In this document: piece by piece, positions 11,368 through 63,158 of the stretch
How positions within the stretch are numbered: position 1 is the stretch's first letter
Layout: every line of letters begins with the position of its first letter
Source: a virus
Taxonomy: Duplodnaviria > Heunggongvirae > Uroviricota > Caudoviricetes
Length of the DNA stretch: 64,000 nt
IMG/VR virus record: IMGVR_UViG_3300031134_000466
Reading direction: 5' to 3' (one strand)
Notes under the pieces: model-generated
Told to the model about the DNA's origin: nothing
Databases searched by the model: none
What the model saw: only the letters and a program-made list of their open reading frames with translations
Program-made: the position numbers and the translations under genes

Positions 11368-11369
11368 GA

Positions 11370-12303: not shown

Positions 12304-12331
12304 TCCCGTACTGAACTACTAAGAAGGAAAC

Positions 12332-13324
12332 ATGTCAGAAGAAAACAACCTCGAACCTCGTGAGCAGCAGCACCCAGCTTATGAGGCAATCAACTGGAAC
12401 AACGTCGATGAGTTCGACAACGCTGTTTGGCAGAAACTTACCAGTAACTTCTGGTTGCCAGAAAAAGTCTCTGTTTCCAACGACCGTAAAACATGGGAAA
12501 CCTTGTCTGATGCAGAAAAGAAGCTGGTTCTCCATGTCTTTACTGGTCTGACAATGCTTGACACCATTCAGGGTCGTTTCGGTGCTTTGAGTATTATGAA
12601 AGATGCAACTTCGTTGTTCGAAGAAGCTGTGTACACAAACATTGCGTTTATGGAGAATGTTCACGCTAAGAGCTACTCTTCTATCTTCTCTACTCTGTCC
12701 ACCACAAAGGACATTAACCAGTCCTTCAACTGGTCACAGCATAATGAGTTCCTTCGTAAGAAGGAAGAAATCATCATGTCCTACTACCGCGACACCGAGC
12801 ACCCTTTAGCTCCTCAGCGTCGTAAGATTGCTTCAACCCTGCTTGAATCCTTCTTGTTCTACTCAGGTTTCTACCTTCCTCTGTACATGAACTCACAGGC
12901 TAAGCTCACAAACTCAGCTGACATCATCAAGCTGATTATTCGTGACGAAGCAGTTCACGGTTTCTACATTGGTAAAAAGTACCAGGACAGCATTGAAGAA
13001 CTGGATGAGGCTACTAAAGCTGAACTCAAAGACTTCACCTACGAATTGCTTCTCGACTTGTTCGATAACGAAATTCGTTACACTCAGGACTTGTATGATG
13101 AGTTCGGTCTTACCGAAGACGTAATTGCTTTCTTGAAGTACAACGCAAACAAGGCTCTTGCTAACTTGGGCTATGAGCCTTTGTTCCCTGACCCTGAAGT
13201 ATCTGCAGCTATCACTTCGCAGCTCAACGCAGGTTCTGACACGCACGACTTCTTCAGTGGAAGTGGAGCATCCTACGTGATGACCACTCGTGAAGAGTTG
13301 GCTGAAGAGGACTGGGACTTCTAA
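12332..13324 (+). CDS. nrdF: ribonucleotide reductase small (beta) subunit, class Ib-like
   Basis: 330 aa. 'AINWN', di-iron ExxH motifs 'ENVHAKSYS' and 'RDEAVHG', C-terminal acidic tail 'EEDWDF'. Confidence 0.9.
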   Translation: MSEENNLEPREQQHPAYEAINWNNVDEFDNAVWQKLTSNFWLPEKVSVSNDRKTWETLSDAEKKLVLHVFTGLTMLDTIQGRFGALSIMKDATSLFEEAVYTNIAFMENVHAKSYSSIFSTLSTTKDINQSFNWSQHNEFLRKKEEIIMSYYRDTEHPLAPQRRKIASTLLESFLFYSGFYLPLYMNSQAKLTNSADIIKLIIRDEAVHGFYIGKKYQDSIEELDEATKAELKDFTYELLLDLFDNEIRYTQDLYDEFGLTEDVIAFLKYNANKALANLGYEPLFPDPEVSAAITSQLNAGSDTHDFFSGSGASYVMTTREELAEEDWDF

Positions 13325-13347
13325 TCTACACTGACATGTAGCTTCTT

Positions 13348-13391
13348 AGGAGGGCTGACACTGAATACAAATTTTCAGTGTCAGCCCTCCT
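13348..13391 (+). terminator. hairpin terminator after nrdF
   Basis: 17-bp arms aggagggctgacactga / tcagtgtcagccctcct. Confidence 0.8.
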
Positions 13392-13615
13392 TGTGTTAAC
13401 AGACCAGAAACGTATCCCATTAGCCGCAGACGCCCATCTGCTGCCCTAATACCCTTCATTCACTCAAGTGGACGGCTTACACTACCCAACCTCTTAGACG
13501 CCGTTTTAGTAAGAAACTGCTTTATAGGGTTACCGAGTTGCATTCTTCGGACCTTCCTGCTAAGGTAAGGAACATACAGTCCTTATTCGTTCCACCAGGA
13601 AGAAACAAAGCTTTT

Positions 13616-14050
13616 ATGTTTGATGAGATTGGCTCGGCGCCTCAGACCCGGTACAAGCCCCGTGCGGGCGTTGTGCAGTTCCCTGAGAAGACTGCTCTTT
13701 CCAACCGTCAGCGTTCCTACCTGGATATTGCTGTTCGCCTCGCTGAGTCCTCGGATGCAAGCTTCAAGCACGGAGCAGTTATTGTTCGTGGCGGCAGCGT
13801 TCTTGCTGTCGGAGTGAACAAGTGGAAGAATCGTGACCTTCCTCCGACTCCCCCTGATGTGTACAACCCTGACATCACTGTCCACGCTGAGATTGATGCT
13901 CTTTCCCGAGTGAAGGACGCTCGCGGAACCACTGTCTACATTGCCCGAGTCACCCGTAGCGGCGACGAGCGTTTCTCTCGCCCCTGCAACCGTTGCGAGA
14001 AGGCTCTCATCGAGGCTGGAGTCAAGCGGGTCGTCTACACGGTAGGCTAA
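13616..14050 (+). CDS. CMP/dCMP-type zinc deaminase
   Basis: 'HAEIDAL' and 'PCNRCEKAL' zinc motifs. ATG 13616 has AGGAAG upstream. The track TTG at 13538 is possible but less likely. Confidence 0.75.
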   Translation: MFDEIGSAPQTRYKPRAGVVQFPEKTALSNRQRSYLDIAVRLAESSDASFKHGAVIVRGGSVLAVGVNKWKNRDLPPTPPDVYNPDITVHAEIDALSRVKDARGTTVYIARVTRSGDERFSRPCNRCEKALIEAGVKRVVYTVG

Positions 14051-14064
14051 GACAAATAATTCCT

Positions 14065-14104
14065 AAGGCTGAACGTTTTACTGATAAAGTAAACGTTCAG
14101 CCTT
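14065..14104 (+). terminator. hairpin terminator
   Basis: 14-bp arms aaggctgaacgttt / aaacgttcagcctt. Confidence 0.7.
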
Positions 14105-14127
14105 ATCTGTTTAACGAAAGAACCCTG

Positions 14128-14343
14128 ATGACTTGTCCACACTGTGCAATGGTAAACGAATGGCATCAATACAATTGCCCCACTGTACCCAAATTCGAAG
14201 ACATCTATGATGGACACCATTATTGGATTGCCTTCATGGATAGCCCTTATGCTTCATGTGCCTGGTGTGGAAAGATGAAAGGCAAACTTTCGTCAGCCCC
14301 AGATGCCCAATGTCGAGGAATCGTAAGAGTAGGATTACGTTAA
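14128..14343 (+). CDS. small Cys-rich (zinc-ribbon-like) protein
   Basis: 71 aa. 'CPHC..17..C' and 'CAWC'. It lies between two hairpin terminators. Confidence 0.45.
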   Translation: MTCPHCAMVNEWHQYNCPTVPKFEDIYDGHHYWIAFMDSPYASCAWCGKMKGKLSSAPDAQCRGIVRVGLR

Positions 14344-14386
14344 CTGAAAGAAGCCCTGACTTATAACCAGTCAGGGCTTCTTTCAG
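14344..14386. terminator. bidirectional hairpin
   Basis: 17-bp arms ctgaaagaagccctgac / gtcagggcttctttcag. Confidence 0.8.
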
Positions 14387-14394
14387 TTAATCAG

Positions 14395-16512
14395 TTACAG
14401 TTCACGACGACCTGTACGCAGTTCACGAAGCATACGCTCGTAAGCATATCCTGTCATTTCAGCGTCATTGTAAGCACGGTGAGCGCCAAGGTAAGGAACA
14501 TTGTAGCGGGCAGTGAATGAAGAGAGCTTATCGTTCGGAACATCAGTCAGAAGACGACGAGACAGTTTCAAAGTGTCAAGAATTTTGATTTTCTTGTGCT
14601 TCACAGCATCAGCAAAACCAGGAACATGTGTGGACATCCAACGCTGTTCAAAAGTCTTGTTGTGAGCCATCATGATACCAACATTTGTCAGCTGGTCAAG
14701 AACAGCAGTACCTTCAGCAGGGTTCAAGAACTGACGCTTCTTCGCAATCTGAGTTTCAGTAATACCATGCACTTCACTGTTGCCTGTGCTGCGAGTCAGG
14801 AGAGCTTTCTTCGAAAGACCGTAAAGCTTGCTTGTCTTAGCTTTCTCAGTGTCATTACGAGTCAGAGTAGAGTTACGGTAGTTGGTACGAACGGATGCAC
14901 CATACTCGATGATGCTACCTGAAGTAGGCTGAGAACCGGCAGTTTCCAAATCAACACTCACATAGTCAGGAAGCGTTTCCTGCTTAGCTGCCGTGACGTA
15001 GAGGCTACGAAGCTGAGCCGCAACATAGGTTCGGTCTTTGCGATTCTCATCATCGAAGTTGCCAGCAAACTCCTGCTCAACAACCTTAGAATCAACACCA
15101 CGCATTGTTGCAACTTCAGTGAAGATTTCCTGCTTCTCTTTGTTACTCAAGCTGGAGTTCAGAGCGTTCTGAGAGAAACCACGAGCGCGGTTACGTCCTT
15201 CCCAAGTACCAGCCTTACGGGAAGCAAGCTCGGTGTTGAACTTCTTCACAGCTTCAAGGTTGCCAGCAGCTTCCTGCTCAAGCTCAGGAGTCATAGTGAA
15301 ATGGTATTCACGGTATTCACGGTCGTCAATGACAACTGCAACCATACCACGCTTGAAACCAGCAGCCTGAGCATACCAAAGAGTCTGAGCTCGGTAAGTG
15401 TCAGGAACACCATCCAAACCATCTTCAGGGTTACCCCATTTGCCAGCAACAGAAGCAGTCTTGATTTCGACAATACCGTCAGGGTTACCATCCTTGTCAG
15501 CCATCAGACCGTCAAAGTTAGCAAACTGGAACTCGTTCTCGTTGTGCTTCCAAGAAGACTTGCAGAAAGTGATGTTGTCGTCAGGGTTGTTCTGCACAAC
15601 CTGGAGGAAGATTCGCTTCTCCCAAGCGTTACCACGACCAGCCGCGCCAGCATACTCTTCGTTGTTCAGTGCCTGCTCAGCAACCTGCTCATCAGTGATG
15701 GGTTCAAGCTTGGACTGCATGATTTCTTCATAGCTGTTGTAAGCACCCTTGACTCGCTTGATGGCTCCAACATCTGAACCACCAATACCTTTCTGACGCT
15801 GCTCAAGCCATTCACGAGTACCTGACTCGAACTCAGCAGTCTTAGTGAGTTCATTCAGCGTCTCTTTGTCATACTCACGCCATTCGCCAGCTTCACGAAG
15901 ACGGTTCTCTTCAAGGTCGGCAAGGTGAGCCACAACAGGTGCTGCAACGTCTTTGTACTCGTTAATCTGACGGCGGAGGAGACTGACTTCTTCGTTGATG
16001 TCAATCATCGCAAGTTCCTTCTGACGAACATCTTCGTAAAGGAACGCAGGGTCTTCTTCCCACTTCTTCTTCAGAAGGTCACGGTCAGCTTTAGTCTCCT
16101 CAAGAAGCTGCATGTTTGCATCACGCTTCTCAAGCAGGGCAGTAAAGTCTTCAGAGTTGATACGGTCCTGGATGAAGCTTTCCATGGCTTCCTCATCACC
16201 TGATTCAATCAGGCGGGCAGCTTCAGCTTTATCCTCTTCAACGGTCTTCAGAGCTTTCTGGTGACCGTAGGAACTAACAGGAGTGTAGGTACGCTCCATA
16301 GCTTCCTTCAAAATAGACATAGCAAGCAGGCTCTCAACATCGTTTGTGTTGTTCAGCTGCTTCTCAACCAGCTCAGCATTCTTGTGCTGATGATACTGGT
16401 ACTCAGTCATGTGTTCTCCGTTTATCAGTGTGCATTTCTTCTGTGCAGGGCAACGGACCCAATCGCCTTGCCTCTTGCCTGATTGCTGTTTATGGTAGTT
16501 CTTCATGGTCAA
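14395..16512 (-). CDS. exonuclease fusion: YqaJ-like (PD-(D/E)XK) domain + DnaQ-like DEDDh 3'-5' exonuclease
   Basis: 705 aa. 'EWLEQRQKGIGGSDVGAI' (YqaJ). C-terminal 'VSVDLETAG', 'AHNKTFEQRW', 'HRAYNDAEM' (DEDDh). The N-terminal ~230 aa look coiled-coil. Confidence 0.75.
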   Translation of the reverse strand: MTMKNYHKQQSGKRQGDWVRCPAQKKCTLINGEHMTEYQYHQHKNAELVEKQLNNTNDVESLLAMSILKEAMERTYTPVSSYGHQKALKTVEEDKAEAARLIESGDEEAMESFIQDRINSEDFTALLEKRDANMQLLEETKADRDLLKKKWEEDPAFLYEDVRQKELAMIDINEEVSLLRRQINEYKDVAAPVVAHLADLEENRLREAGEWREYDKETLNELTKTAEFESGTREWLEQRQKGIGGSDVGAIKRVKGAYNSYEEIMQSKLEPITDEQVAEQALNNEEYAGAAGRGNAWEKRIFLQVVQNNPDDNITFCKSSWKHNENEFQFANFDGLMADKDGNPDGIVEIKTASVAGKWGNPEDGLDGVPDTYRAQTLWYAQAAGFKRGMVAVVIDDREYREYHFTMTPELEQEAAGNLEAVKKFNTELASRKAGTWEGRNRARGFSQNALNSSLSNKEKQEIFTEVATMRGVDSKVVEQEFAGNFDDENRKDRTYVAAQLRSLYVTAAKQETLPDYVSVDLETAGSQPTSGSIIEYGASVRTNYRNSTLTRNDTEKAKTSKLYGLSKKALLTRSTGNSEVHGITETQIAKKRQFLNPAEGTAVLDQLTNVGIMMAHNKTFEQRWMSTHVPGFADAVKHKKIKILDTLKLSRRLLTDVPNDKLSSFTARYNVPYLGAHRAYNDAEMTGYAYERMLRELRTGRREL

Positions 16513-51757: not shown

Positions 51758-52729
51758 TTAAATTTCTCGCAGCTGCACAATTGTCAGTTCAGTTGCTTCA
51801 CCTTTTTTATTGACCCTTTTGACTTTCACATCATTAGCAACAACTTCGAATTTTGCACCACGAGGAATGATGAACTCATACTCTCTTGGACCTTGCGATG
51901 AAATAGCTGTGATTGGGGCTCCACTTTTTGTAAGAATCTGTAAAGAAACATTGATGTTGTCTTTGGAAGGTAAATCTTGAGGATTCAAACTTGTCGATAA
52001 GAAGAATTTAGGTTCGTAAGTGCTACCAACAGGGAAATGTTTGTCGAGGTTTTGAGCGTCATCACTTGAATGATATCCTTTTTCATCATAAAGATGATGA
52101 CGGCGGTAAACCATCACGCCTTCTTCTGCTGGTTCGTGTTTAGCAAAAGCATCATCCAGGATAGTTACAGCTGCATCCAACGTTTCAGGTGCAACATTTT
52201 TTGCGTACGGATTTGTTGAAGCTGAAAGATGGCCGTTGATGTCAGCATAGCCATCTTCTGAATACCAGCGAAGAGTAGCTATTTCAGTATCATCCAGTTT
52301 GGCACTCCAGTTTTGGGAATCTGCCATGCTGTTCAACAGGTCAGCATGTTTGTAATGCATCTCTTCAAGAGTGTCACCAGTTTCGAAAAACGTCGGAGAA
52401 GTGTAAGCAGCTTTTTGTGCTTTTTTGTGGGTGATGACTTTACGATCCGCAACAGCAGCTAATCTTCTGGCTCGTTCTTGAGAAAGCGCTTCGTATTCTT
52501 CTGCATGCCATTCCTGCGTTGGATTCTTTTTGATCTGTCTTTCCAAAGACTTTAGATAAGCTGGTGTTAGTTTGTACTCTGCTTCAGCTTTTCTTCTTAC
52601 CGCTATTAGCTTCTCAAGCTCTGGGTCTTTGCGGTTGTCCATGAAAGCACTGAGAACCGCTTGATGAGCTTTAGCGTAGGTGGCTGCAGCATGAGCTGAA
52701 CAACGGGGACCAGGTTTTGGGTAACACAT
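51758..52729 (-). CDS. R-S-ExE ADP-ribosyltransferase 3 with N-terminal C-x7-C-x2-H module
   Basis: 323 aa. 'MCYPKPGPRCSAHAA' is identical to the ART 2 N-terminus. 'VMVYRRH', 'LSTSLN', 'REYEFIIPRG'. Confidence 0.7.
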   Translation of the reverse strand: MCYPKPGPRCSAHAAATYAKAHQAVLSAFMDNRKDPELEKLIAVRRKAEAEYKLTPAYLKSLERQIKKNPTQEWHAEEYEALSQERARRLAAVADRKVITHKKAQKAAYTSPTFFETGDTLEEMHYKHADLLNSMADSQNWSAKLDDTEIATLRWYSEDGYADINGHLSASTNPYAKNVAPETLDAAVTILDDAFAKHEPAEEGVMVYRRHHLYDEKGYHSSDDAQNLDKHFPVGSTYEPKFFLSTSLNPQDLPSKDNINVSLQILTKSGAPITAISSQGPREYEFIIPRGAKFEVVANDVKVKRVNKKGEATELTIVQLREI

Positions 52730-54121: not shown

Positions 54122-55363
54122 ATGTCAACTACAAGAAAACCTCCTTATCATCACAGCGATGGTACAAACTGCTGGACTAAAGATTGTTCGATCAGAGGCC
54201 GTGAAGATACAGAAAAAGCTGCTTTCTTCAAGCAAGTAGAAACAGCTGCTGAGACTGTTGTTCCAACCAATGAATTGCCTCCTCTGTCAGCTTTTCAGAA
54301 AGCCTATGATGATGGTCGCATTGAGTGCAGCCGCCACCCTGAACATCCTTATGTGACTTACAAGTATTCCAGAACAACTCAGTTTGCTTCTGACTGGGAT
54401 GATGTGACCTTAGCGTCTCGTGGTGTCATCTTCAATGAGGAGACAGGCGAGATTGTTGCTCGTCCATTTGCTAAGTTCTTCAACCATAACGAACCGTCAG
54501 TTCCCAGAGACAAATTACATGGCCGTATTAGTGTAACTGACAAGCTGGACGGTTCTTTAGGAATTGGTTATGTTGATGAGAACGGTAAGTTCAACATTGC
54601 AACCTCTGGAAGCTTTATCTCTGAACAGGCAAAACGTTCTACAGAGCTCTATCATGAGCGTTATGAAGGCAACTGGAAGCCAAATCCTAAGTTGACCTAC
54701 ATGTGGGAAATCATCTACCCAGAAAATCGTGTCGTGGTCAACTATGGCGATGAAGATGACTTGCATCTCATCGGTGCTGTCAACAAACGAACTGGTAAAT
54801 CAGTTCCGTTGCGTGACATCAAAGAATGGAAGTGGAAAAGAGCTGAAGAGTACAAAGACTTCTCCTCCTTGGATGCTGTTCTTCACTCTCCTGAAAGAGA
54901 AAACCGTGAAGGTTTCATTGTTCATTACATCGATACTGATACCCGCGTGAAATACAAGCATGCAGATTATCTTGAGCTCCATCGTAACCGTACTGGCGTG
55001 ACTTCCAAAACTATCTGGCGTAAAATGCGTATGGGTGAAGATATGGCAGGTTGGAAAGAGAACATGCCTGAAGAGTTCAGTGAGTTCGTATCCACTCGTC
55101 AAGCTAAAATCACTGCCGGATATAACAAAGAAATTGCCCAAATTACTGATGAGCATGGCACTTTCAAAGCAACTCTTCCTGCTGGTTATGACCGTAAGAC
55201 TTTTGCTACCACTTTGAAAAACTCACCTCTTGTACCAGCCGAAAACAAAGCTTTCGTCATGAACCTTGAGTTCAACGGCAGTGCTGTTGGAAGTGTTGTT
55301 CAATCTCATAAGATTTGGGACCGTGTGAAACCTGAGGACGAGAACACCTTGTGGAACATGTAA
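54122..55363 (+). CDS. ATP-dependent RNA ligase, paralog B (with Cys-containing N-terminal extension)
   Basis: 413 aa. 'TDKLDGSL', 'WEIIYPENRVVVNY', 'NREGFIVH', 'TRVKYK'. Collinear with paralog A. Confidence 0.75.
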   Translation: MSTTRKPPYHHSDGTNCWTKDCSIRGREDTEKAAFFKQVETAAETVVPTNELPPLSAFQKAYDDGRIECSRHPEHPYVTYKYSRTTQFASDWDDVTLASRGVIFNEETGEIVARPFAKFFNHNEPSVPRDKLHGRISVTDKLDGSLGIGYVDENGKFNIATSGSFISEQAKRSTELYHERYEGNWKPNPKLTYMWEIIYPENRVVVNYGDEDDLHLIGAVNKRTGKSVPLRDIKEWKWKRAEEYKDFSSLDAVLHSPERENREGFIVHYIDTDTRVKYKHADYLELHRNRTGVTSKTIWRKMRMGEDMAGWKENMPEEFSEFVSTRQAKITAGYNKEIAQITDEHGTFKATLPAGYDRKTFATTLKNSPLVPAENKAFVMNLEFNGSAVGSVVQSHKIWDRVKPEDENTLWNM

Positions 55364-55652: not shown

Positions 55653-55728
55653 CTTGGACCTCCTAATTTTAAATCGGCTGATTATTTTACGAATTGTACT
55701 GTAATTATAGTCATTCTGACGATAAAGA

Positions 55729-55737
55729 TGGTATGAT
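55729..55737 (+). promoter_or_regulatory. extended -10 (TGGTATGAT), near-leaderless operon promoter
   Basis: TATGAT lies 9 nt upstream of ATG 55747. Confidence 0.5.
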
Positions 55738-55746: not shown

Positions 55747-56412
55747 ATGAAGAACACATACGGAATTCTCGGCGGATATGGGGCGGTAGCCACCCTACAT
55801 CTCCAGCAGCTGCTCGTGAAGCGAGTCCTCAGCACTGGACAGTACGCTGATATTGCCTTCCCTCGTATGGTAATTTCCAATCTGCCTGAAGACATCATCA
55901 ATGCTGAAGGACATATCAGCAGCCTTGGTAGCCTGCGGACTGAACTTGGTAAAACAGCTCCTCTATTCCAAGGAGCCACAGATGTTTATGTCATTTGTAA
56001 CACCTTCCATGTCGAAGAAGAGTTCATGCAGCGAGTCTTCGCTAACAAACTACATTCTGTTCCGGCTTTAACCAGTCAAGCTGTCGTAGATGCTGGATAC
56101 TCCAAACCTCTTATCGTAGGTTCCAAGCTGACTTCTCAGGATAACCTGTACAGTCATACAGCTTACACCTCAACTAACATGTTTGCGGATGAGCTAATCA
56201 CTGCTGGAATGAAGTACCAGACATCTCACTCTCAGCTGGCAGATGTCATAGCTGCTGCCAAACAGGCTAGCTCAGACTGCATTGTTTTAGGTTGCACAGA
56301 TTTGTCCGTGATGGCTGACACTCTCCGAACCATGACTGCACTTCCCGTAATCGACTCCGTTGAAGCAGTCGCCAACCATATTTACAACTCCCATACGAAA
56401 GATGAATCGTGA
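55747..56412 (+). CDS. Asp/Glu/hydantoin racemase-superfamily enzyme (two-Cys type)
   Basis: 221 aa. 'YGILGGYGAVAT', 'VYVICNTFH', 'IVLGCTDLS', 'PVIDSV'. Confidence 0.75.
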   Translation: MKNTYGILGGYGAVATLHLQQLLVKRVLSTGQYADIAFPRMVISNLPEDIINAEGHISSLGSLRTELGKTAPLFQGATDVYVICNTFHVEEEFMQRVFANKLHSVPALTSQAVVDAGYSKPLIVGSKLTSQDNLYSHTAYTSTNMFADELITAGMKYQTSHSQLADVIAAAKQASSDCIVLGCTDLSVMADTLRTMTALPVIDSVEAVANHIYNSHTKDES

Positions 56413-57374
56413 AAGTCTACAACGACACAGTAACCATGACTGCAGAGCTGGCTCAGACCTTAGAGCAATTGAGAGCTGTGCGGGCTTTTGACGCTACAGA
56501 ATGGATTGAGCGTAAGGTTGTCCTAATCAACCAGTACTTCGCTCAGAACAAGCTCTCAGGGGCTGTAGTAGGTGTTTCTGGTGGCATCGACTCAGCTGTA
56601 GCCCTTTCACTTCTTGTCAAAGCATCCCAGCAAGACAACAGCCCAATTCAGAAGATTGTCCCTCTTCTACTTCCTGCTCTTTCTTACGAAGGTGCAACTA
56701 ACCAAGACGGGGCAGTTCAGCAGGCTACTGACCTATGCCAGAACCTTGGACTGAAGCCAGCTGTTTTCACTAAGCTCACATCTCTTTCCCAAGTGATTAC
56801 TTCTGAACTGGAAGACATTCTGGACATCAAATCAACAGACTGGGCTAAAGGACAGCTAGTGGCTTACACCAGAACCCCAGTCCTGTACAACACCTGCTCA
56901 ATCCTTACTGACGCCGGCTACCCTGCACTGGTTGTAGGAACCACAAACCTTTCCGAAGGTGGATACCTCGGTTATGTCGGAAAAGCTTCAGATGGTATGG
57001 TTGACCTGCAAGTAATTTCTGATTTGTACAAGTCAGAAGTGTACAAAGTCGCAGCTTTACTTGAAGTTCCTGAAAGCGTTATGAAAGCTACTCCTACAGG
57101 GGACATGTACGACGGTCGTGAAGATGAAACAGTTTTCGGAGCTTCTTACGACTTCGTAGAGCTGTTTCATCTATGGCTACAGGCACGCAGCGTCCCATTG
57201 AAACTTCTTCGAGATGCCCACTTTGTCACAGGAGCTAAAAACCTGCAAAAACTGCACGACTACAACGCACATAAGTACACCTACGGAACTCCATCCATTC
57301 ACCTGGACATTATGAACGCAGCAATCCCAAACGGATGGAACAATCAGCCTTGGAGGCCCCAGAATGGCAACTAA
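56409..57374 (+). CDS. divergent NadE-family PP-loop amidotransferase (NAD or NMN synthetase-like)
   Basis: 321 aa. 'GVSGGIDSAV', 'VVGTTNLSEGGYLGYVGKASDGMVD', 'ATPTGDMY..EDETVFGASYDFVE'. GTGA overlap with the upstream stop codon. Confidence 0.7.
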   Translation: MKVYNDTVTMTAELAQTLEQLRAVRAFDATEWIERKVVLINQYFAQNKLSGAVVGVSGGIDSAVALSLLVKASQQDNSPIQKIVPLLLPALSYEGATNQDGAVQQATDLCQNLGLKPAVFTKLTSLSQVITSELEDILDIKSTDWAKGQLVAYTRTPVLYNTCSILTDAGYPALVVGTTNLSEGGYLGYVGKASDGMVDLQVISDLYKSEVYKVAALLEVPESVMKATPTGDMYDGREDETVFGASYDFVELFHLWLQARSVPLKLLRDAHFVTGAKNLQKLHDYNAHKYTYGTPSIHLDIMNAAIPNGWNNQPWRPQNGN

Positions 57375-58104
57375 ATTCGTAAACCAAGTCAACTTCGAAA
57401 TCCCTACTGTTGCTCACACAGTTCAAGTGAGACCGTTCCCTGAACTTGACCGTACAGCGGTAGTGATTCCTGAACTCGTCCCTGCCGAGGAAAAAGTCAG
57501 TATCATGGCAGCGTTGGAAGACTCCAACTGGCAGCCAGTGTCAGTGACAGGAATGTCAGGAAACTGGAAAGAAGGTGACCCTATTGGTTCTTACCGTGCT
57601 TCCAACTACACTCCTGAGTATGCTGAAGTTCTGTGGAACAGAATCAAACACGGTTTCCCTACTGTACGCACATTCACAGATGCTGATAACACCGACTTCG
57701 ATGGTCATGAGCTGTGGGAACCCATTGGCGTGTCACCTCTTCTTCGATTCATCAAATATGAAGAAGGCGGCTGGCTTGTAGTTCATTACGATGCTCCGTA
57801 TGTCGAATCAGAAGATGTTCGCACACTCCAAAGCCTTGTCGTATATCTGGAACACCCAGGTGAACTTCACGGAGGAGCAACCCGCTACCTTCATGACCCT
57901 CAGGCTCATCTTCCTGTTACTCAGCGTGAACTCAACGACGAATACCGTGCTGCTGAAGAAGATGAAGTGAGACTCCGCTTCGCTCCTGAAGATGGAACAG
58001 CTGTAGTCTTCGACCACCGCCTTCTGCATGACGCTGAAAAGGTCACAGGAACTGGCACAAAAACAATCATTCGAACAGACATTATGTACAGGAAAGTACG
58101 ATGA
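57364..58104 (+). CDS. 2OG-Fe(II) oxygenase (P4H-like)
   Basis: 246 aa. 'VVHYDAP' (HxD), 'VVFDHRLLHDAE' (distal His), 'KTIIRTDIMY'. 11-nt overlap with the upstream gene. Confidence 0.65.
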   Translation: MATKFVNQVNFEIPTVAHTVQVRPFPELDRTAVVIPELVPAEEKVSIMAALEDSNWQPVSVTGMSGNWKEGDPIGSYRASNYTPEYAEVLWNRIKHGFPTVRTFTDADNTDFDGHELWEPIGVSPLLRFIKYEEGGWLVVHYDAPYVESEDVRTLQSLVVYLEHPGELHGGATRYLHDPQAHLPVTQRELNDEYRAAEEDEVRLRFAPEDGTAVVFDHRLLHDAEKVTGTGTKTIIRTDIMYRKVR

Positions 58105-59624
58105 ATTTAGACAGATACTTCCAGGCTCTTTACGAAAGAACCAATAGTAAGCAGGACTTAGTAACAGCAGGTTGGATTGAAAACAAGCCGCTACGCATCA
58201 ACCCGCATGTGCGATTCTACACAACCCCTCTGCAAGCTATTCGTGACGCGGGCAAAAAGGACGTATCTGTCTTGTTCTACCCTGGTTGTTTCGCTCCAGT
58301 CCATGAAGGTCACCTTGGGGCTATGAGGCTGGCCAAAGAAGCAATTGAAACCCAGACAGGCGAGACTGTAGCTGCAGGCTATTTCACCCCTGACCATGAT
58401 AACTACATCATGCGTAAAACTCATGACGAACGTTTCATCGCACCTAACCGCATCGCTCTTCTCCATGAAGCAGTAGAAAATGAACCCTGGATGCAGGTGG
58501 ACGACTGGGCTTCACTGTACGCTCCCACTGATTTGAACTTCACAACACTATATGACAGGTTCAACCTTTACCTGAAGCGTTGGTTACCTGACTTGAACAT
58601 CAAGCTGTACATGGTTTTTGGTGGAGACAACTACATGTTTGCGAACAGTTTCACTGAATACGGACACGGTGTTTGTGTGCCAAGAGAAGGAGCTCAGATG
58701 GACTTGAGCTTAGTTCACCCTGATGCCAAAAAGCGGGTTATTTTCAGCGAAAAAGTCTGTACAGACCATTCTTCTACAGCTGCACGAGCAGCAAACCCTG
58801 GAGCTATCGATATCCACGGCAGAAGTGCATTAGGTTCCACCTATGTACTTCGTGAAGACTTGGACTTAGCTTTCCGAGAGAACCCTACTACTTACTCGAA
58901 CAAAATTATTGCTGACTCTGTAGCTATTCTTTTGCAGGCGCATGTGCCGTACGAGAAAGTCAAAGTGAAAAGAGTTCCCATTATCAGGCAGATGGCTAAC
59001 CATACTGAGACAGAGAATGTGATTTCCTTAGACTGTTTCTGGAAAGCAGAGCAGAACCTTGAAATTTCTCGCCTGTTTTCAACTGGAGGCAGTCAGCACC
59101 ATGCCATCAAATACGTCAACCGTCCTGGCTCGCCGGCTCTTCAAGAGCAGGTAGAAGCAATTCCTGCTGGAGTGTACACTCTCGTAGATGATGACATTGC
59201 TACTGGGGAGACAATGAGTTTTGTTTCCAACATGCTGGAAACGCACGATGTTGTTGTTGATAAGCAGGACAGCCTGATTTCCGAGCTGGGTTCTGACTTG
59301 TACGATGTAGTTGATTTGCGAGACTTTGTTCTTGGAACCGAACACGGCGGACTGACGGTTGCAACTCCTACAGGAGAAACGACAAGAATGCCTTACATCG
59401 CTCCTTATGTGAATCTTGTAAGCCGTGCTCGCATTAACCCTGACCGGGTGTTCAGTTTCTCCACCGAACTGTGGAAATTGAACTATGCACTTTACCGTAA
59501 TACGAAAACTACAGTAGGTGACATCAAAGAACATCAGGACTTCACCATGTTCGGTTTTGCCGAAGACATGACAGTGGCTGACTTGTGCCAAAAGCATCTT
59601 CAATTGATGACTGAATTGCAGTAA
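58101..59624 (+). CDS. NadD/NMNAT-type adenylyltransferase fused to a type I phosphoribosyltransferase domain
   Basis: 507 aa. 'GCFAPVHEGHL' ((H/T)xGH), 'HSSTAAR' (SxTxxR), C-terminal PRPP-binding loop 'YTLVDDDIATGETM'. ATGA overlap with the upstream gene. Confidence 0.75.
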   Translation: MNLDRYFQALYERTNSKQDLVTAGWIENKPLRINPHVRFYTTPLQAIRDAGKKDVSVLFYPGCFAPVHEGHLGAMRLAKEAIETQTGETVAAGYFTPDHDNYIMRKTHDERFIAPNRIALLHEAVENEPWMQVDDWASLYAPTDLNFTTLYDRFNLYLKRWLPDLNIKLYMVFGGDNYMFANSFTEYGHGVCVPREGAQMDLSLVHPDAKKRVIFSEKVCTDHSSTAARAANPGAIDIHGRSALGSTYVLREDLDLAFRENPTTYSNKIIADSVAILLQAHVPYEKVKVKRVPIIRQMANHTETENVISLDCFWKAEQNLEISRLFSTGGSQHHAIKYVNRPGSPALQEQVEAIPAGVYTLVDDDIATGETMSFVSNMLETHDVVVDKQDSLISELGSDLYDVVDLRDFVLGTEHGGLTVATPTGETTRMPYIAPYVNLVSRARINPDRVFSFSTELWKLNYALYRNTKTTVGDIKEHQDFTMFGFAEDMTVADLCQKHLQLMTELQ

Positions 59625-59641: not shown

Positions 59642-60238
59642 ATGCTTGAAATACTTACAGCGGTAGGTCTTGCTTTAGCGGCAGGGTTGAACGCTTACAT
59701 TCCTCTGATTGCTGTCAGTTTGTTATCAAAGTTCACTGATTTTTTCACTCTTCCAGGAAACTGGTCATGGATGGAAGACAACTGGACATTAGCGATCTTG
59801 ATTGCTTTAGCTTTAGTAGAGTTCTTTGCTGACAAAATAGCTGCAGTTGACTCGTTGAATGATGTCATCCAAACAGCAGTCCGTCCAACATCAGGCGGAT
59901 TGCTGTTTGCTGCAGGTACCCATGTAACAGATGTTCCTGTGACTCAGATTAGTAATTTTGTGAGTTCTCCAGGCTTTCCTATGTTCATCATTGGTTTGAC
60001 TGTTGCTTTGCTTCCTCATTTGATGAAGATGTTCATCAGGCCGCTTATTAACGCAACGATGAGTGGAATGGTGACACCCATTGTCAGTTTTGGTGAAAAC
60101 ATTCTTACAGTAGGTTTGGTTGCTATGGCTATATTCATTCCAGTGCTGGTACCAGTAGCAGTAATACTGGTCATTGTTATAGGAGTACGGATTTTCCGAA
60201 ACCTCACCGCGAAAAAGAGTAAAACAGCAACAGCCTGA
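59642..60238 (+). CDS. DUF4126-like membrane protein
   Basis: 198 aa. 'EFFADKIAAVDSLNDVIQTAVRPTSGG' and about 5 TM segments. 17 nt after the upstream stop codon. Confidence 0.6.
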   Translation: MLEILTAVGLALAAGLNAYIPLIAVSLLSKFTDFFTLPGNWSWMEDNWTLAILIALALVEFFADKIAAVDSLNDVIQTAVRPTSGGLLFAAGTHVTDVPVTQISNFVSSPGFPMFIIGLTVALLPHLMKMFIRPLINATMSGMVTPIVSFGENILTVGLVAMAIFIPVLVPVAVILVIVIGVRIFRNLTAKKSKTATA

Positions 60239-60330: not shown

Positions 60331-61548
60331 ATGGTGCAAAAACCAGAACGCGGGCGTTACTTAGAGCTTGAAGGTGTACGTGTTTCGTATAAACACAAAG
60401 ATGATTCCATCCACCTCACAGCAACAGACCCAGATGTTCCTCAGATAAACATCACCCTAAACAAAGGGACAGCGACAGAAGATTCGCTTAGAGATTTGCT
60501 CGTAGAGTACGGTTTAATTAGAGAATCAGAGTCTAATGCTGTTACCGAAATGGAACCTATCCCATATTACGCGGGTAACCCATTCTCAGCATTGCTGGCA
60601 GAATCACATATCCCGTCAGACAGAGCCAAGAACATTCTTCTTACAGGACAGCCAGGTTCAGGTAAAACCGTGGCCGCATCCTATGCAGCATTTCTTGCAC
60701 AAGGAATGAACATGCCTACTTTCGTCATGGGGCTTGCAGTTGACTATCTGAAAACGCTCAATGAAGACACCCAGGTTCTGATGCTGACAAAAATGGAATC
60801 AGGCTACCTGAATCCATTCAAAACAAAAATGTCAACAGAGCAGATTCTTCACTTTATCAACACTTTGACACTTCCAAGAGATGCTTACTATCAAGCACGA
60901 GCAAACCAGACGATAACAACACTCATCAAACAACAGTATGAAACTAAGCAGCCTTCATTGACTGGACTGCTACAAGTAATCAGCAAGTATGAAGAACTCC
61001 AATATGAAACAGCTGCTCTTTCCCATTTGGGTCTTAGCCCTGTAGGAGCTCCATTCTTTGGATACTCAGAGAACGTATTAGTGATTGATCCTGACAAGGA
61101 TTATGTCTTTGATGCCGCTGAAGTTCCGCTTGTAGCACCAGTAGAAGCATTGGACACTACTCAGGCAAGACAGAACACTGCAATCATTCAAGCAGTGTTC
61201 CATTTTGTTAGACAGCATTCACGACCAAGTAGTCAACCAAAAATGCTGATTGTCGACGGGAGGAATTACCAGTATGTTACTGAACTGAACCAGCTCAGTA
61301 GGTTAGCCCGAAGCCTAAATTTGGTTATGCTCACAGTAGGTGAACTTGAAGAAAATAACAGTCAATACTCTGACTTCATGGCTTACCGCTCTTCAACCGC
61401 AGAGACATCTGAACTTTTTGGTAAAAGGCTTGACACGCTTTCTTCAGGTCAATCTTATTGGAGAAACGAAGACGGAGAGGTCTTCTTTGTCCCTCGACCT
61501 ACCCTTCCAGCATCGTTTGCAAGAATTTTTGACACAATACCCAGATAA
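60331..61548 (+). CDS. P-loop NTPase (HerA/FtsK/VirB4-like?)
   Basis: 405 aa. Walker A 'GQPGSGKT', Walker B-like 'KMLIVDG'. The family assignment is tentative. Confidence 0.5.
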   Translation: MVQKPERGRYLELEGVRVSYKHKDDSIHLTATDPDVPQINITLNKGTATEDSLRDLLVEYGLIRESESNAVTEMEPIPYYAGNPFSALLAESHIPSDRAKNILLTGQPGSGKTVAASYAAFLAQGMNMPTFVMGLAVDYLKTLNEDTQVLMLTKMESGYLNPFKTKMSTEQILHFINTLTLPRDAYYQARANQTITTLIKQQYETKQPSLTGLLQVISKYEELQYETAALSHLGLSPVGAPFFGYSENVLVIDPDKDYVFDAAEVPLVAPVEALDTTQARQNTAIIQAVFHFVRQHSRPSSQPKMLIVDGRNYQYVTELNQLSRLARSLNLVMLTVGELEENNSQYSDFMAYRSSTAETSELFGKRLDTLSSGQSYWRNEDGEVFFVPRPTLPASFARIFDTIPR

Positions 61549-62238: not shown

Positions 62239-62268
62239 TCACAAAAACGTGCTTTTTCGTCAATATGA

Positions 62269-62277
62269 CGATATACT
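62269..62277 (+). promoter_or_regulatory. -10 element (CGATATACT)
   Basis: 35-nt leader with an AAGGAAGG RBS before ATG 62313. Confidence 0.5.
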
Positions 62278-62312
62278 GTAATAAGAATGGTCTAAGGAAG
62301 GAAACCCGTATC

Positions 62313-63158
62313 ATGACCAAGCTCCAGAAACAGATTATTAACACTCTTGGGGTAAAACCCGTCATCAATGCCGAACAGGAGCTACGCACTCGTGTAGATT
62401 TCCTCAAAGACTTCACCCGTAATGCTGGCACCAGAGGATTTGTACTTGGAATCAGTGGTGGACAGGACTCTGCTCTTGCCGGCTACATTGCACAGACAGC
62501 TGTCCGTGAACTCCGCGACGAGACGGGTGAGAACTACCAGTTCTTAGCTCTTCTTCTTCCTTACGGGACTCAGAAAGACGCTGATGATGCAATCACCATC
62601 GCCCGTGACTTCATCAAGGCTGACCAGGTAATTGAGTACAACATCAAGCCTGCAGTGGATGCTTTCACTGACCAGTACAATGACATCGCTGGCTGGTCAG
62701 GCGATGAAGCTGATAACCTCAGCGATTACCATAAAGGTAACGTCAAAGCCCGCACCCGTGCCGTAACACAGTACGCTTACGCTGGTACCCATCAGCTGCT
62801 TGTTGTAGGTACAGACCATGCTGCTGAGGCAGTATCAGGCTTCTTCACCAAGTTCGGTGACGGTGCAGCTGACGTTCTCCCTTTGAGCGGTTTGAACAAA
62901 CGTCAGGGCAAAGAGCTTCTTCGCTTGGCAGGTGCTCCCGAGTTCGTCATCACCAAAGCTCCCACAGCGGACCTTCTGGACAACAAAGCAGGTCAGGCTG
63001 ATGAGACTGAGCTGGGTATTACATACGATGTTCTTGACGACTACCTTGAAGGTAAAGATGTCAATGTAGTTGCAGCTCAGAAAATTGAACTGCGTTACCT
63101 GATGACAGAACACAAGCGTCAACTCCCAGTTGACCCTGCAGCAACATGGTGGAAGTGA
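62313..63158 (+). CDS. nadE: NH3-dependent NAD+ synthetase (canonical NadE)
   Basis: '[10 protein letters not shown]', 'NVKARTR', '[24 protein letters not shown]', '[27 protein letters not shown]'. Confidence 0.9.

What the first reader, a model, noticed from the sequence alone, without database searches (positions are those of the whole stretch)
56409..57374. Two NadE paralogs: one canonical, one strongly divergent and operon-linked to the adenylyltransferase
The product of 62313..63158 has textbook NH3-dependent NadE motifs. The product of 56409..57374 keeps the PP-loop and the 'GT.N.SE..GY..K..DG..D' core but diverges elsewhere and is longer. In Francisella, a NadE-family enzyme amidates NaMN, acting as an NMN synthetase, and so reverses the order of the last two NAD steps. 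The divergent copy, sitting next to the NadD/NMNAT fusion, could play that role or amidate a different carboxylate.
Basis: partly seen in the sequence, partly recalled or inferred. Interest (0 to 1): 0.5.

Follow-up and report, generated by a model that had tools for sequence, protein, structure and literature searches.

The report
Divergent NadE in a three-enzyme NAD module
The odd second NAD synthetase gene of this giant phage belongs to an undescribed enzyme clade that always travels with an oxidising enzyme and a fused adenylyltransferase/phosphoribosyltransferase, which points to an unknown self-contained way of making NAD or a close relative of it.

Summary
62313..63158 encodes a textbook NH3-dependent NadE. 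56409..57374 encodes a 321-aa NadE-superfamily protein with intact catalytic residues, only 27% identical to it.

The divergent copy is not a stray paralog and not a Francisella-type NMN synthetase. It belongs to a separate clade (NJ bootstrap 95; never grouped with FtNadE*).

In all 71 loci examined (megaphage contigs and 63 bacterial species) the gene lies beside a fused NMNAT-like/type-I-PRTase-like gene. Each locus also has exactly one of three unrelated hydrogen-abstracting enzymes:
- a 2OG-Fe(II) oxygenase (27 loci, including this window);
- a 291-aa radical SAM enzyme (35 loci, anaerobes);
- a RaSEA-family radical SAM enzyme (8 loci).

Many relatives fuse two, three or four of these domains into one protein. 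Seventy-six ordinary phage NadE loci lack these partners. Several bacterial loci also carry NrtR, PncB, NadV, NadD, PnuC/NadR or a canonical NadE.

Best reading, inferred and not shown: a self-contained cassette runs nicotinate to NaMN to NaAD. The NadE-like enzyme then couples the carboxylate to an amine donor, and the oxidase removes the alkyl group to leave the amide, as ArcS/RaSEA do. Rivals are an NMN synthetase, an NAD analogue pathway, and an ordinary NadE.

I found no description of this module. Xanthomonas phage X1, which is cultured, carries a compact version.

The parts
55708..55737 (+). Sigma-70-like promoter match (TAGTCA, 18 nt spacer, TG-TATGAT) 10 bp upstream of the first gene of the operon.
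   Evidence: This is a weak consensus match: 3 sites were found in the region against 10.7 expected in shuffles. It is positional support only.
55747..56412 (+). Asp/Glu-racemase-superfamily protein (221 aa), an accessory gene of the module.
   Evidence: PF01177 E 1.2e-9. The nearest solved structure is aspartate racemase 1jfl, E 1.2e-7, and both catalytic Cys motifs are kept (ICNTFH, LGCTDLS). A homolog lies directly upstream of the NadE-like gene in 16 of 71 loci, with either 2OG-type or RaSEA-type partners. Its stop codon overlaps the GTG start of the next gene.
56409..57374 (+). Divergent NadE-superfamily PP-loop amidotransferase (321 aa, GTG start). This is the finding itself.
   Evidence: Family and fold:
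- PF02540 E 1.4e-31; below all full-length NadE equivalog cut-offs.
- AlphaFold model pLDDT 90.4; all top Foldseek hits are NadE structures.

Residues:
- Conserved catalytic and binding residues: S57GGxDS62, E183, R155, T178, K192, D195, D199, K208, P229-T230, H288-K289.
- Family-specific invariant residues at substrate-site positions: W145, Q149, G191.

Clade and context:
- Separate clade, bootstrap 95.
- About 250 cluster representatives at E<1e-30, many of them fusions.
57364..58104 (+). 2OG-Fe(II) oxygenase (246 aa, prolyl-4-hydroxylase-like), the obligatory oxidising partner in this version of the module.
   Evidence: PF13640 E 5.9e-8 and PhyH E 7e-5. The HxD...H triad (H141, D143, H218/H222) and R237 are invariant in 19 homologs. 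No close solved relative was found. It is fused to the C-terminus of the NadE-like domain in many relatives. It is present in 27 of 71 loci and never together with the two radical SAM alternatives. Its start has a GGAGG ribosome-binding site and lies 11 bp inside the NadE-like gene.
58101..59624 (+). Fusion protein (507 aa): an N-terminal NMN/NaMN-adenylyltransferase-like domain and a C-terminal type-I phosphoribosyltransferase-like domain.
   Evidence: Whole protein:
- PF01467 E 1.2e-8.
- AlphaFold model pLDDT 91.
- A homolog lies adjacent to the NadE-like gene in every locus.

N-terminal domain:
- G62xFxPxHxGH71 and S225..R229 are invariant.

C-terminal domain:
- A profile of the domain hits the PRPP loop of adenine PRTases, E 0.03.
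- L361VDDDIATG369 is invariant.
59642..60238 (+). DUF4126 membrane protein (198 aa), 17 bp downstream of the fusion gene. It may be associated with the module (a transporter?).
   Evidence: PF13548 E 7e-45. It sits in the same position in the related 482-kb contig L004. It was not found beside the module in other lineages, so membership is uncertain.
62313..63158 (+). Canonical NH3-dependent NAD+ synthetase NadE (281 aa). It is the comparator copy and not part of the operon.
   Evidence: PRK00768 347 bits (cut-off 250). 2pz8 E 2.5e-99. It groups with B. anthracis NadE, bootstrap 100. It also co-occurs with the divergent copy in L004 and L005.

Best explanation
The gene encodes the amidating enzyme of a conserved, horizontally mobile, self-contained pyridine-nucleotide module. 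It is not a spare NadE.

Shown:
- It is a catalytically intact member of the NadE superfamily, in a clade of its own.
- That clade is always linked, by adjacency or by fusion, to an NMNAT-like/type-I-PRTase-like protein.
- It is also always linked to exactly one hydrogen-abstracting enzyme: a 2OG-Fe(II) oxygenase, a 291-aa radical SAM enzyme, or a RaSEA-family radical SAM enzyme.
- In several bacteria the module sits among NAD genes.

Inferred mechanism:
1. The PRTase-like domain joins a pyridine carboxylate (most simply nicotinate) to PRPP, giving NaMN.
2. The NMNAT-like domain adenylylates NaMN to NaAD.
3. The NadE-like enzyme adenylates the nicotinate carboxylate. It then couples it not to free ammonia but to an amine or amino-acid donor. 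Such a donor could be supplied by the accessory aspartate-racemase-like enzyme here, or by the Lys/Orn-decarboxylase-like enzyme in anaerobes.
4. The 2OG oxygenase attacks the carbon next to the new amide nitrogen. The resulting hemiaminal collapses, leaving the primary amide (NAD+) plus an aldehyde or keto acid.

The net result would be NAD+ synthesis that needs neither ammonia nor glutamine. The precedent is ArcS/RaSEA in archaeosine synthesis: lysine is transferred and a radical SAM partner then converts the adduct, with lysine serving as the nitrogen source.

In the phage, the cassette would supply NAD+ during infection independently of host enzymes. It lies near a phage ADP-ribosyltransferase gene, which would consume NAD+.
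For: Clade:
- The divergent family is separate from all characterised NadEs. In-family scores exceed 210 bits, against at most 67 bits for any solved NadE.
- NJ bootstrap for the clade is 95.

Linkage:
- All 71 loci have the NMNAT/PRTase gene beside the NadE-like gene.
- The three partner enzymes are mutually exclusive: 27, 35 and 8 loci, plus one truncated contig.
- Fusions exist of NadE-like+2OG (about 590 aa), NadE-like+2OG+NMNAT+PRTase (about 1,170-1,400 aa) and NadE-like+NMNAT/PRTase (855 aa).
- In the window the four genes overlap stop to start.

Negative control:
- 76 ordinary phage NadE loci have no such neighbours within 5 kb.

NAD context:
- NrtR-like regulator in 10 loci.
- PncB plus glutamine-dependent NadE (L014), NadV plus NadE (L038), NadD plus NadE (L018), PnuC plus NadR (L040/41).
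- Xanthomonas phage X1 has a compact module beside NadM-Nudix and NadV.

Folds and residues:
- The catalytic residues of NadE are intact, while the substrate-site positions W145, Q149 and G191 are family-specific invariants.

Support for the amine-donor step:
- The partner in 8 loci scores 194 bits (E 3e-57) on TIGR01210, the RaSEA family.
- RaSEA forms a complex with ArcS, the enzyme that transfers lysine to preQ0, and converts the lysine adduct to archaeosine. Most ArcS enzymes studied (T. kodakarensis and two others) use lysine rather than NH4+, Asn or Gln (PMC11298593).
- 2OG oxygenases classically dealkylate by hydroxylating next to a heteroatom (established knowledge).
- The oxidase gene is always the immediate neighbour or fusion partner of the NadE-like gene.
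- The accessory genes are amino-acid or amine enzymes: Asp racemase-like and Lys/Orn decarboxylase-like.
Against: - No step of the chemistry was tested. The substrates of all four proteins are inferred.
- The accessory amine-supplying genes are absent from many loci (racemase-like in 16 of 71, PLP enzyme in 29 of 71). The donor would then have to come from the host.
- Spending 2OG and O2, or SAM, to obtain an amide nitrogen looks wasteful next to a glutaminase.
- The 291-aa radical SAM enzyme resembles MoaA and viperin only weakly and is not RaSEA-like. A role on the nucleotide itself is equally possible.
- A methyltransferase-like gene (23 loci) and a GNAT (type B loci) are not explained by this model.
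- Residue comparisons do not show a larger nucleophile pocket. The model coordinates could not be inspected.
Confidence: 0.35

Rival explanations
1. NMN synthetase route. The PRTase domain makes NaMN, the NadE-like enzyme amidates NaMN to NMN, and the NMNAT-like domain then makes NAD+, bypassing NaAD. This could be combined with the amine-donor idea, since only the acceptor would differ.
For: - The top Foldseek hit is the Francisella NMN synthetase 3fiu (E 2e-14, TM 0.86 on the target). It is the second-best sequence hit in the PDB.
- The divergent copy coexists with a canonical NaAD-type NadE.
Against: - The clade never groups with FtNadE* (0 of 100 bootstraps).
- Positions aligned to Ft Y27 and Q133 carry small residues, as in NaAD-using enzymes.
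- Other NadE structures score almost as well as 3fiu.
- The idea does not explain the obligatory oxidase or the NadE-like-oxygenase fusions.
Confidence: 0.2
2. The module makes a modified NAD analogue. The oxidase hydroxylates or desaturates the pyridine ring or the ribose of the nucleotide intermediate, or builds an unusual carboxylated base. The NadE-like enzyme amidates that non-standard substrate. The product would be a signal, an inhibitor of NAD-consuming enzymes, or an NADase-resistant cofactor.
For: - The NadE-like gene coexists with canonical NadE, which suggests a substrate canonical NadE cannot use.
- Substrate-site residues are family-specific.
- The 291-aa radical SAM enzyme is nearest to MoaA and viperin, which attack nucleotide riboses, although weakly (39 and 26 bits).
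- Accessory methyltransferase-like and GNAT genes occur in many loci.
- The distribution is very patchy: 63 of about 185,000 species, one locus on a Streptomyces plasmid, and gut loci beside a recombinase and Lamassu/Hachiman genes.
Against: - NrtR, salvage genes and PnuC/NadR beside the module suggest ordinary NAD supply.
- The module is present in small-genome CPR bacteria.
- A RaSEA-family partner points to processing of a nitrogen donor rather than to ring or ribose chemistry.
- There is no match to any PADLOC defence model.
Confidence: 0.2
3. Ordinary NH3-dependent, NaAD-specific NadE that has simply diverged inside a mobile Preiss-Handler-like cassette. The oxidase works upstream, for example by releasing nicotinate from an N-alkylated or otherwise blocked pyridine such as trigonelline, or has an unrelated role.
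For: - All NadE catalytic residues and the H-K pair that binds the nucleotide phosphates are kept.
- Residues are small at the positions that are bulky in FtNadE*.
- A mobile cassette must carry every step to work in any host.
- C-N bond cleavage is also what a precursor dealkylase would need, so the RaSEA and 2OG partners fit this reading too.
Against: - Two functionally identical NadEs are kept side by side in several phage and bacterial lineages.
- The oxidase is fused to, or overlaps, the NadE-like gene rather than the PRTase end.
- The protein scores far below the NadE equivalog cut-offs.
Confidence: 0.17
4. Not NAD-related. The PP-loop enzyme amidates, or forms a lactam from, a carboxylate on a different base, nucleotide or peptide. 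The NMNAT-like and PRTase-like domains handle a non-pyridine heterocycle.
For: - The PRTase-like domain is closest, weakly, to adenine, orotate and hypoxanthine PRTases, not to the type II nicotinate enzymes.
- Type B loci continue into a SPASM-type radical SAM gene, a 617-aa unknown and a small protein, which resembles a peptide-maturation set.
Against: - The NadE-specific motifs and the H-K pair are retained.
- NAD genes and NrtR recur as neighbours.
Confidence: 0.08

Closest known systems
NH3-dependent NAD+ synthetase NadE (B. subtilis / B. anthracis type; PF02540, TIGR00552)
   Same: Same fold: all top Foldseek hits, E down to 2e-14. The PP-loop SGGxDS is kept, as are the Mg/ATP and adenylate-stabilising residues and the H-K pair. 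It very probably shares the two-step chemistry of carboxylate adenylation followed by attack of a nitrogen nucleophile.
   Different: - Only 27% identical to the phage's own canonical NadE.
- Far below the equivalog cut-offs.
- Forms a separate clade.
- Invariant W145, Q149 and G191 replace F129, N133 and T169 (B. subtilis numbering, from memory).
- About 40 aa longer.
- Always coupled or fused to an oxidase and to an NMNAT/PRTase protein, which ordinary NadE genes are not.
Francisella tularensis NadE* (NMN synthetase, PDB 3fiu)
   Same: A single-domain NadE homolog proposed to work with an NMN-accepting adenylyltransferase. It is the best structural match by a small margin.
   Different: The two are not sister groups (0 of 100 bootstraps). 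The family lacks the bulky residues aligned to Y27 and Q133. FtNadE* has no oxidase partner and no PRTase fusion.
ArcS-RaSEA (archaeosine synthesis)
   Same: A nitrogen is installed by transferring an amino acid (lysine), and a tightly bound radical SAM partner then converts the adduct to archaeosine (PMC11298593). In 8 loci the NadE-like partner is a RaSEA-family protein (194 bits). In the other loci an oxygenase or another radical SAM enzyme takes the same place.
   Different: The acceptor there is a nitrile on a tRNA base and the transferase is ArcS, which is not a PP-loop enzyme. Here the acceptor would be an adenylated carboxylate of a free nucleotide. This window has the 2OG oxygenase, not RaSEA. 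The analogy is a mechanistic lead only. Membership was not tested for the window's proteins.
Phage NAD+ reconstitution pathways NARP1 (Adps+Namat), NARP2 (NadV+NMNAT), NARP3 (PnuC+NadR)
   Same: Phage-encoded multi-enzyme sets that rebuild NAD+ (10.1101/2024.02.11.579819; PMC13464706). Xanthomonas phage X1 carries the compact module right beside a NARP2-like NadV plus NadM-Nudix pair.
   Different: The components are different: a NadE-like enzyme, a 2OG oxygenase and a type-I PRTase-like domain. No NadV, NadR or PnuC homolog was found in the window. The route would pass through deamido intermediates rather than nicotinamide, ADP-ribose or nicotinamide riboside. No anti-defence role has been shown.
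Preiss-Handler pathway (PncB, NadD, NadE)
   Same: The three inferred activities are phosphoribosyl transfer to a pyridine carboxylate, adenylylation and amidation. These match the three Preiss-Handler steps.
   Different: The PRTase-like domain is type I, whereas PncB is type II. The adenylyltransferase is NMNAT-like and fused to the PRTase-like domain. A fourth, oxidising enzyme is obligatory.

Membership tests
NadE superfamily (NAD synthase, PF02540 / TIGR00552) | Match to the family profile above the curated threshold. | tested here: met
   PF02540 109.9 bits (cut-off 21). TIGR00552 107.6 bits (cut-off 63.65).
NadE superfamily (NAD synthase, PF02540 / TIGR00552) | PP-loop SGGxDS and the Mg/ATP/adenylate residues (B. 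subtilis D50, E162, R139, T157, K170, D173, K186, P207-T208; numbering from memory). | tested here: met
   S57GGIDS62, D61, E183, R155, T178, K192, D195, K208 and P229-T230 are invariant in 22 family members.
NadE superfamily (NAD synthase, PF02540 / TIGR00552) | NadE fold. | tested here: met
   Model pLDDT 90.4. The top 48 Foldseek hits are all single-domain NadE structures and ranks 49-50 are two-domain NAD+ synthetases; E from 2e-14, TM up to 0.86 on the target.
Canonical NaAD-specific NH3-dependent NadE (NCBIfam equivalogs PRK00768, PRK13980) | Score above the equivalog cut-off. | tested here: not met
   74 bits against 250, and 122.3 bits against 255. The window's other copy scores 347.
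Canonical NaAD-specific NH3-dependent NadE (NCBIfam equivalogs PRK00768, PRK13980) | Uses NaAD as acceptor and free NH3 as donor. | not testable with these tools
   This needs enzyme assays. The H288-K289 pair is kept, but several substrate-site positions differ: W145, Q149, Y153, G191, V242.
Francisella-type NMN synthetase (NadE*) | Common ancestry with FtNadE*. | tested here: not met
   NJ tree: family plus Ft grouped in 0 of 100 bootstraps. Ft falls with the canonical NadEs. Caveats: the method is NJ only, and the Ft sequence was partial (residues 2-228).
Francisella-type NMN synthetase (NadE*) | Bulky residues Y27, Q133 and R236 that close the adenylate pocket (recalled from Sorci et al. 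2009; the paper was not readable here). | tested here: not met
   The aligned positions are N47 (family S/N/C/H) and S164 (family S/T), against T and G in B. anthracis. The third position could not be aligned to Ft; the family has S/T where B. anthracis has V.
Francisella-type NMN synthetase (NadE*) | Preference for NaMN over NaAD. | not testable with these tools
   A kinetic assay is required.
Glutamine-dependent NAD synthetase | Nitrilase-type glutaminase domain fused to the synthetase domain. | tested here: not met
   The protein has a single domain of 321 aa with no CN-hydrolase match. Where relatives are fused, the added domain is a 2OG oxygenase.
Other PP-loop enzymes (QueC, TilS, MnmA, GMP synthase, LarE) | Best profile match to one of these families. 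| tested here: not met
   Only marginal N-terminal PP-loop matches, 15-19 bits, well below their cut-offs.
Phage NAD reconstitution pathways NARP1-3 | The signature gene pairs: Adps+Namat, NadV+NMNAT, or PnuC+NadR. | tested here: not met
   tblastn with NadV, NadR, PnuC, PncB and NadD found nothing in the window. The operon proteins have no NAMPT or PRPP-synthetase profile match. Adps and Namat sequences themselves were not used as queries.
New module: NadE-like + H-abstracting oxidase + NMNAT/PRTase | NadE-like gene adjacent or fused to an NMNAT/type-I-PRTase gene and to exactly one of 2OG oxygenase, 291-aa rSAM or RaSEA-like rSAM. | tested here: met
   The window carries NadE-like, 2OG and NMNAT/PRTase genes with overlapping junctions. 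The same rule holds in 70 of 71 loci; the exception is a truncated contig.

The most novel reading that the evidence does not exclude
[quoted passage not shown] A NadE-like ligase would attach an amino acid or amine to the nicotinate carboxylate. A dedicated oxidase would then cut the N-C bond to leave the amide. The oxidase would be a 2OG oxygenase in aerobes and phages, and a radical SAM enzyme, including RaSEA-like ones, in anaerobes and CPR bacteria. Together with a new type-I nicotinate PRTase fused to an NMNAT, this would be a complete, portable fourth kind of phage and bacterial NAD+ supply pathway.
Probability: 0.3. Interest if true: 0.85.

Novelty: new variant of a known kind. Interest (0 to 1): 0.68.

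Why it matters
NAD+ supply is now seen as a central battlefield between phages and bacterial immunity: NAD-depleting defences on one side, and the phage pathways NARP1-3 on the other.

This module has several features that make it worth study:
- It is a conserved set of enzymes that I found described in none of the papers searchable here.
- It occurs in megaphages and in cultured jumbo phages (Xanthomonas phage X1, Variovorax phage V45v66).
- It also occurs in CPR bacteria with minimal metabolism, in gut Clostridia and in Streptomyces.

Two outcomes are possible.
- If it makes NAD+, it adds a new route with a new type of nicotinate PRTase. It may also add a new way of installing the amide nitrogen.
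- If it makes an NAD analogue, it is a new small-molecule player in phage-host conflict.

Either way, the obligatory pairing of a NadE-like enzyme with interchangeable O2-dependent and O2-independent oxidases is a clear biochemical puzzle. It can be tested directly with recombinant proteins and with a cultured phage.

Tried and rejected
- **DNA similarity to deposited phages.** A blastn search of 55700-63200 gave only two short hits in the canonical nadE. The window has no close sequenced relative.
- **PHROGs.** It gave only 'NAD synthetase' for the two NadEs and nothing for the partners.
- **PADLOC.** No defence-system model matched the NadE-like, fusion or racemase-like proteins. The oxygenase and radical SAM proteins gave only generic hits. 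I therefore dropped the idea that the gut-bacterial cluster is a known defence system.
- **The oxygenase against the PDB.** The sequence search found nothing, and a profile search found only weak prolyl-hydroxylase matches. Its substrate cannot be inferred this way.
- **The 380-aa X1 protein as a separate PRTase domain.** hhalign found no similarity. Instead, the 371-aa X1 protein itself carries degenerate DIFTGTT and LLDISDF motifs.
- **Sorci et al. 2009 (PMC2651253).** The paper is not held. The specificity residues are therefore from memory. They are cross-checked only by the fact that B. anthracis has T and G at the aligned positions.
- **Residue-level prediction of NaMN versus NaAD.** This was inconclusive.
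- **Other NAD genes in the window.** tblastn with NadV, PncB, NadD, NadR, PnuC, NrtR, RaSEA and the methyltransferase-like protein found none.
- **tRNAs.** None were found in the window.
- **Oxidase as a source of ammonia for NadE, by analogy with the glutaminase domain.** I judged this less likely than donor dealkylation.
- **De novo quinolinate synthesis from aspartate.** I rejected this because no NadA-like enzyme accompanies the module.
Full report
**1. The observation**

The product of 62313..63158 (281 aa) is a canonical NH3-dependent NAD+ synthetase:
- NCBIfam PRK00768 347 bits (cut-off 250) and PF02540 E 9e-66.
- E 2.5e-99 against B. anthracis NadE.
- A good ribosome-binding site lies before the ATG at 62313.

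The product of 56409..57374 (GTG start, 321 aa) is much more distant:
- It matches PF02540 (E 1.4e-31) and the domain model TIGR00552. It falls far below all full-length NadE equivalog cut-offs.
- The two proteins are 27% identical.
- Its best solved relatives are P. horikoshii NadE (E 1.6e-17) and the Francisella NMN synthetase 3fiu (E 7e-17).

The window looks like part of a very large phage:
- It has no close DNA relative among deposited phages.
- The same gene order recurs on metagenomic contigs of 482 and 695 kb.
- Neighbouring genes include an ADP-ribosyltransferase and a T4-type RNA ligase.

**2. The operon**

The divergent gene is the second of four genes whose stop and start codons overlap:
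- 55747..56412, an Asp/Glu-racemase-family protein. It is nearest to aspartate racemase and keeps both catalytic cysteines.
- 56409..57374, the NadE-like protein.
- 57364..58104, a prolyl-hydroxylase-like 2OG-Fe(II) oxygenase with an intact HxD...H triad.
- 58101..59624, a 507-aa fusion protein.

- The C-terminal half has an invariant LVDDDIATG loop. A profile of the domain aligns this loop to the PRPP loop of adenine PRTases (E 0.03).

**3. The family and its context**

A full HMMER scan of 1.84 billion cluster representatives found about 250 representatives at E<1e-30. Many of them are longer proteins. Pfam shows these to be fusions:
- NadE-like + 2OG oxygenase, about 590 aa.
- NadE-like + 2OG oxygenase + NMNAT-like + PRTase-like, about 1,170-1,400 aa.
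- NadE-like + NMNAT/PRTase, 855 aa.

A scan of one genome per species found the family in only 63 of about 185,000 species, and very patchily. The carriers are gut Clostridia and Bacilli, several CPR phyla, Melainabacteria, Elusimicrobia, Armatimonadota, Streptomyces (once on a plasmid), Variovorax and Bdellovibrionales.

I ran tblastn and clustered the neighbouring ORFs over 71 loci.
- In every locus the NadE-like gene lies beside an NMNAT/PRTase homolog.
- Every locus has exactly one of three unrelated hydrogen-abstracting enzymes: the 2OG oxygenase (27 loci: phages and mostly aerobic lineages), a 291-aa radical SAM enzyme whose gene abuts the start of the NadE-like gene (35 loci: anaerobes), or a 385-aa radical SAM enzyme (8 loci: CPR and Pseudomonadales MAGs).
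- The single exception is a contig that starts at the NadE-like gene.
- The 385-aa enzyme scores 194 bits, E 3e-57, on TIGR01210, the RaSEA family.

Accessory genes vary between loci:
- The racemase-like gene (16 loci).
- A Lys/Orn-decarboxylase-like PLP enzyme (29 loci, always with the 291-aa radical SAM enzyme).
- A methyltransferase-like protein (23 loci).
- A GNAT.

As a negative control I examined 80 NadE loci from IMG/VR. Only the two true family members have the oxygenase and the fusion beside NadE. Seventy-six ordinary phage NadE loci have neither.

Two cultured phages carry a compact sister version: Xanthomonas phage X1 and Variovorax phage V45v66.
- The gene order is a 371-aa NMNAT-like protein with degenerate PRTase motifs, a homologous oxygenase (27% identity, E 5e-17), and a 276-aa NadE.
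- In X1 this lies next to NadM-Nudix and NadV.

**4. The link to NAD**

Several bacterial loci place the module among recognisable NAD genes:
- An NrtR-like Nudix regulator in 10 loci.
- PncB plus a glutamine-dependent NadE.
- NadV plus a small NadE.
- NadD plus NadE.
- PnuC plus NadR.

I identified these neighbours by BLAST clustering and by reading their sequences, not by profile searches. The names are therefore provisional.

Taken with the NMNAT fold and the retained NadE motifs, this makes a pyridine-nucleotide role much more likely than an unrelated one. A canonical NadE repeatedly sits close by, in this window, in L004/L005 and in four bacterial lineages. This argues that the divergent enzyme is not simply redundant.

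**5. Phylogeny and residues**

An NJ tree was built from 33 sequences with 100 bootstraps.
- The family forms a clade (bootstrap 95), with the X1 NadE as its sister (99).
- The window's canonical copy groups with B. anthracis NadE (100).
- FtNadE* falls with the canonical enzymes. It never grouped with the family.

The alignment to B. anthracis NadE shows the following:
- The PP-loop, the metal and ATP ligands, the aspartate next to the adenylate and the C-terminal H-K pair are invariant. The enzyme should therefore be active.
- Positions that line the acceptor site in B. subtilis NadE carry family-specific invariant residues: F129 to W145, N133 to Q149, T169 to G191. The B. subtilis roles are from my memory of the literature.
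- At the positions aligned to FtNadE* Y27 and Q133, the family has small residues, as NaAD-using enzymes do.

The model of the NadE-like protein (pLDDT 90) finds only NadE structures. 3fiu is first, but four other NadEs score within about tenfold.

The divergent one also does not cluster with FtNadE*.

**6. Mechanism**

Shown:
- An intact NadE-type amidotransferase in a distinct clade.
- Obligatory genetic coupling, including fusion, to an NMNAT-like/PRTase-like protein and to an interchangeable O2-dependent or O2-independent hydrogen-abstracting enzyme.

Inferred:
- The PRTase-like and NMNAT-like domains build NaMN and then NaAD from a pyridine carboxylate, PRPP and ATP.
- The NadE-like enzyme amidates the product.

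The role of the oxidase is the open point. The most economical reading of three unrelated enzymes taking the same place next to the amidotransferase is a reaction all three can perform.
- The one partner family with known chemistry is RaSEA. It forms a complex with ArcS, which transfers lysine to preQ0, and converts the lysine adduct to archaeosine. Most ArcS enzymes studied use lysine, not NH4+, Asn or Gln, as nitrogen source (PMC11298593).
- Hydroxylation next to a heteroatom followed by collapse is also classic 2OG-oxygenase chemistry.

I therefore propose that the NadE-like enzyme couples the adenylated carboxylate to an amine or amino-acid donor, and that the oxidase dealkylates the product to the primary amide. 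The aspartate-racemase-like and Lys/Orn-decarboxylase-like accessory enzymes would supply donors.

This is a hypothesis, and I put it at about one in three. The rivals are:
- an NMN synthetase, which is compatible with the same donor idea;
- synthesis of a modified NAD analogue;
- an ordinary NadE with the oxidase acting on a precursor;
- a role unrelated to NAD.

**7. Novelty**

None of the searchable papers mentions this combination. That includes the survey of viral NAD/ADP-ribose systems (PMC9503650) and the NARP papers. A targeted search returned nothing, and 'NadE-like' searches gave only unrelated uses. The library is incomplete, so prior description cannot be excluded.

I rate this a new variant of a known kind. 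It is a new NadE clade and a new architecture for pyridine-nucleotide synthesis, with a realistic chance of new chemistry in the amidation step.

Noticed in passing
window 51758..52729 (-): This 323-aa protein has an ADP-ribosyltransferase exoenzyme domain (PF03496, E 8.7e-21). It is an NAD+-consuming enzyme encoded 3 kb upstream of the NAD module, and could be one reason the phage carries its own NAD supply.
   Followed up: no
window 54122..55363 (+): T4 Rnl1-type RNA ligase (PF09511, E 1.6e-14), just upstream of the operon. The same neighbour is found in the 482-kb contig L004, and other RNA-repair genes (2',5' RNA ligase, PNKP-like) lie near the module in L004 and L005.
   Followed up: no
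window 59642..60238 (+) and 60331..61548 (+): A DUF4126 membrane protein and a 405-aa P-loop NTPase-like protein (weak AAA/STAND hits) follow the operon. Both are conserved in the same order in L004. DUF4126 might be a transporter for the precursor.
   Followed up: partly
L001-L003 (human-gut metagenome contigs), 1..5900 and 10746..15500: In gut Clostridia the anaerobic version of the module follows a large serine recombinase. It is preceded by variable defence genes (Lamassu LmuB-like, or Hachiman HamA plus helicase). It is followed by a GNAT, a SPASM-type radical SAM enzyme (YydG-like), a 617-aa protein with no family match and a 111-aa protein. This looks like a mobile island. The downstream genes may form a peptide-maturation set.
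   Followed up: partly
L024, L045, L049, L064 (CPR and Pseudomonadales MAGs), within 9 kb of the module: A conserved set lies beside RaSEA-type modules: an approximately 840-aa protein with a vWA-like DLSGSM motif, an approximately 540-aa AAA-like protein, and two proline/serine-rich proteins of about 315 and 360 aa. None had Pfam or NCBIfam matches where tested.
   Followed up: partly
L071 (Xanthomonas phage X1, OQ427096) 3086..10676; L072 (Variovorax phage V45v66): Cultured jumbo phages carry a compact NMNAT-like/2OG oxygenase/NadE trio. In X1 it is next to NadM-Nudix and NadV. The X1 record annotates the first gene only as hypothetical protein.
   Followed up: yes
L038/L039/L042 (Elusimicrobia MAGs), about 5 kb upstream of the module: Three further radical SAM-like genes (591, 337 and 224 aa) and a 192-aa unknown lie between an NrtR-like gene and the 291-aa radical SAM/NadE-like pair. 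NadV and a small NadE lie upstream of them.
   Followed up: no
window 62265..62312: The canonical nadE ORF can be extended 16 codons upstream to an ATG at 62265. That start has no ribosome-binding site. The ATG at 62313 has AAGGAAGG and matches the N-termini of solved NadEs.
   Followed up: yes
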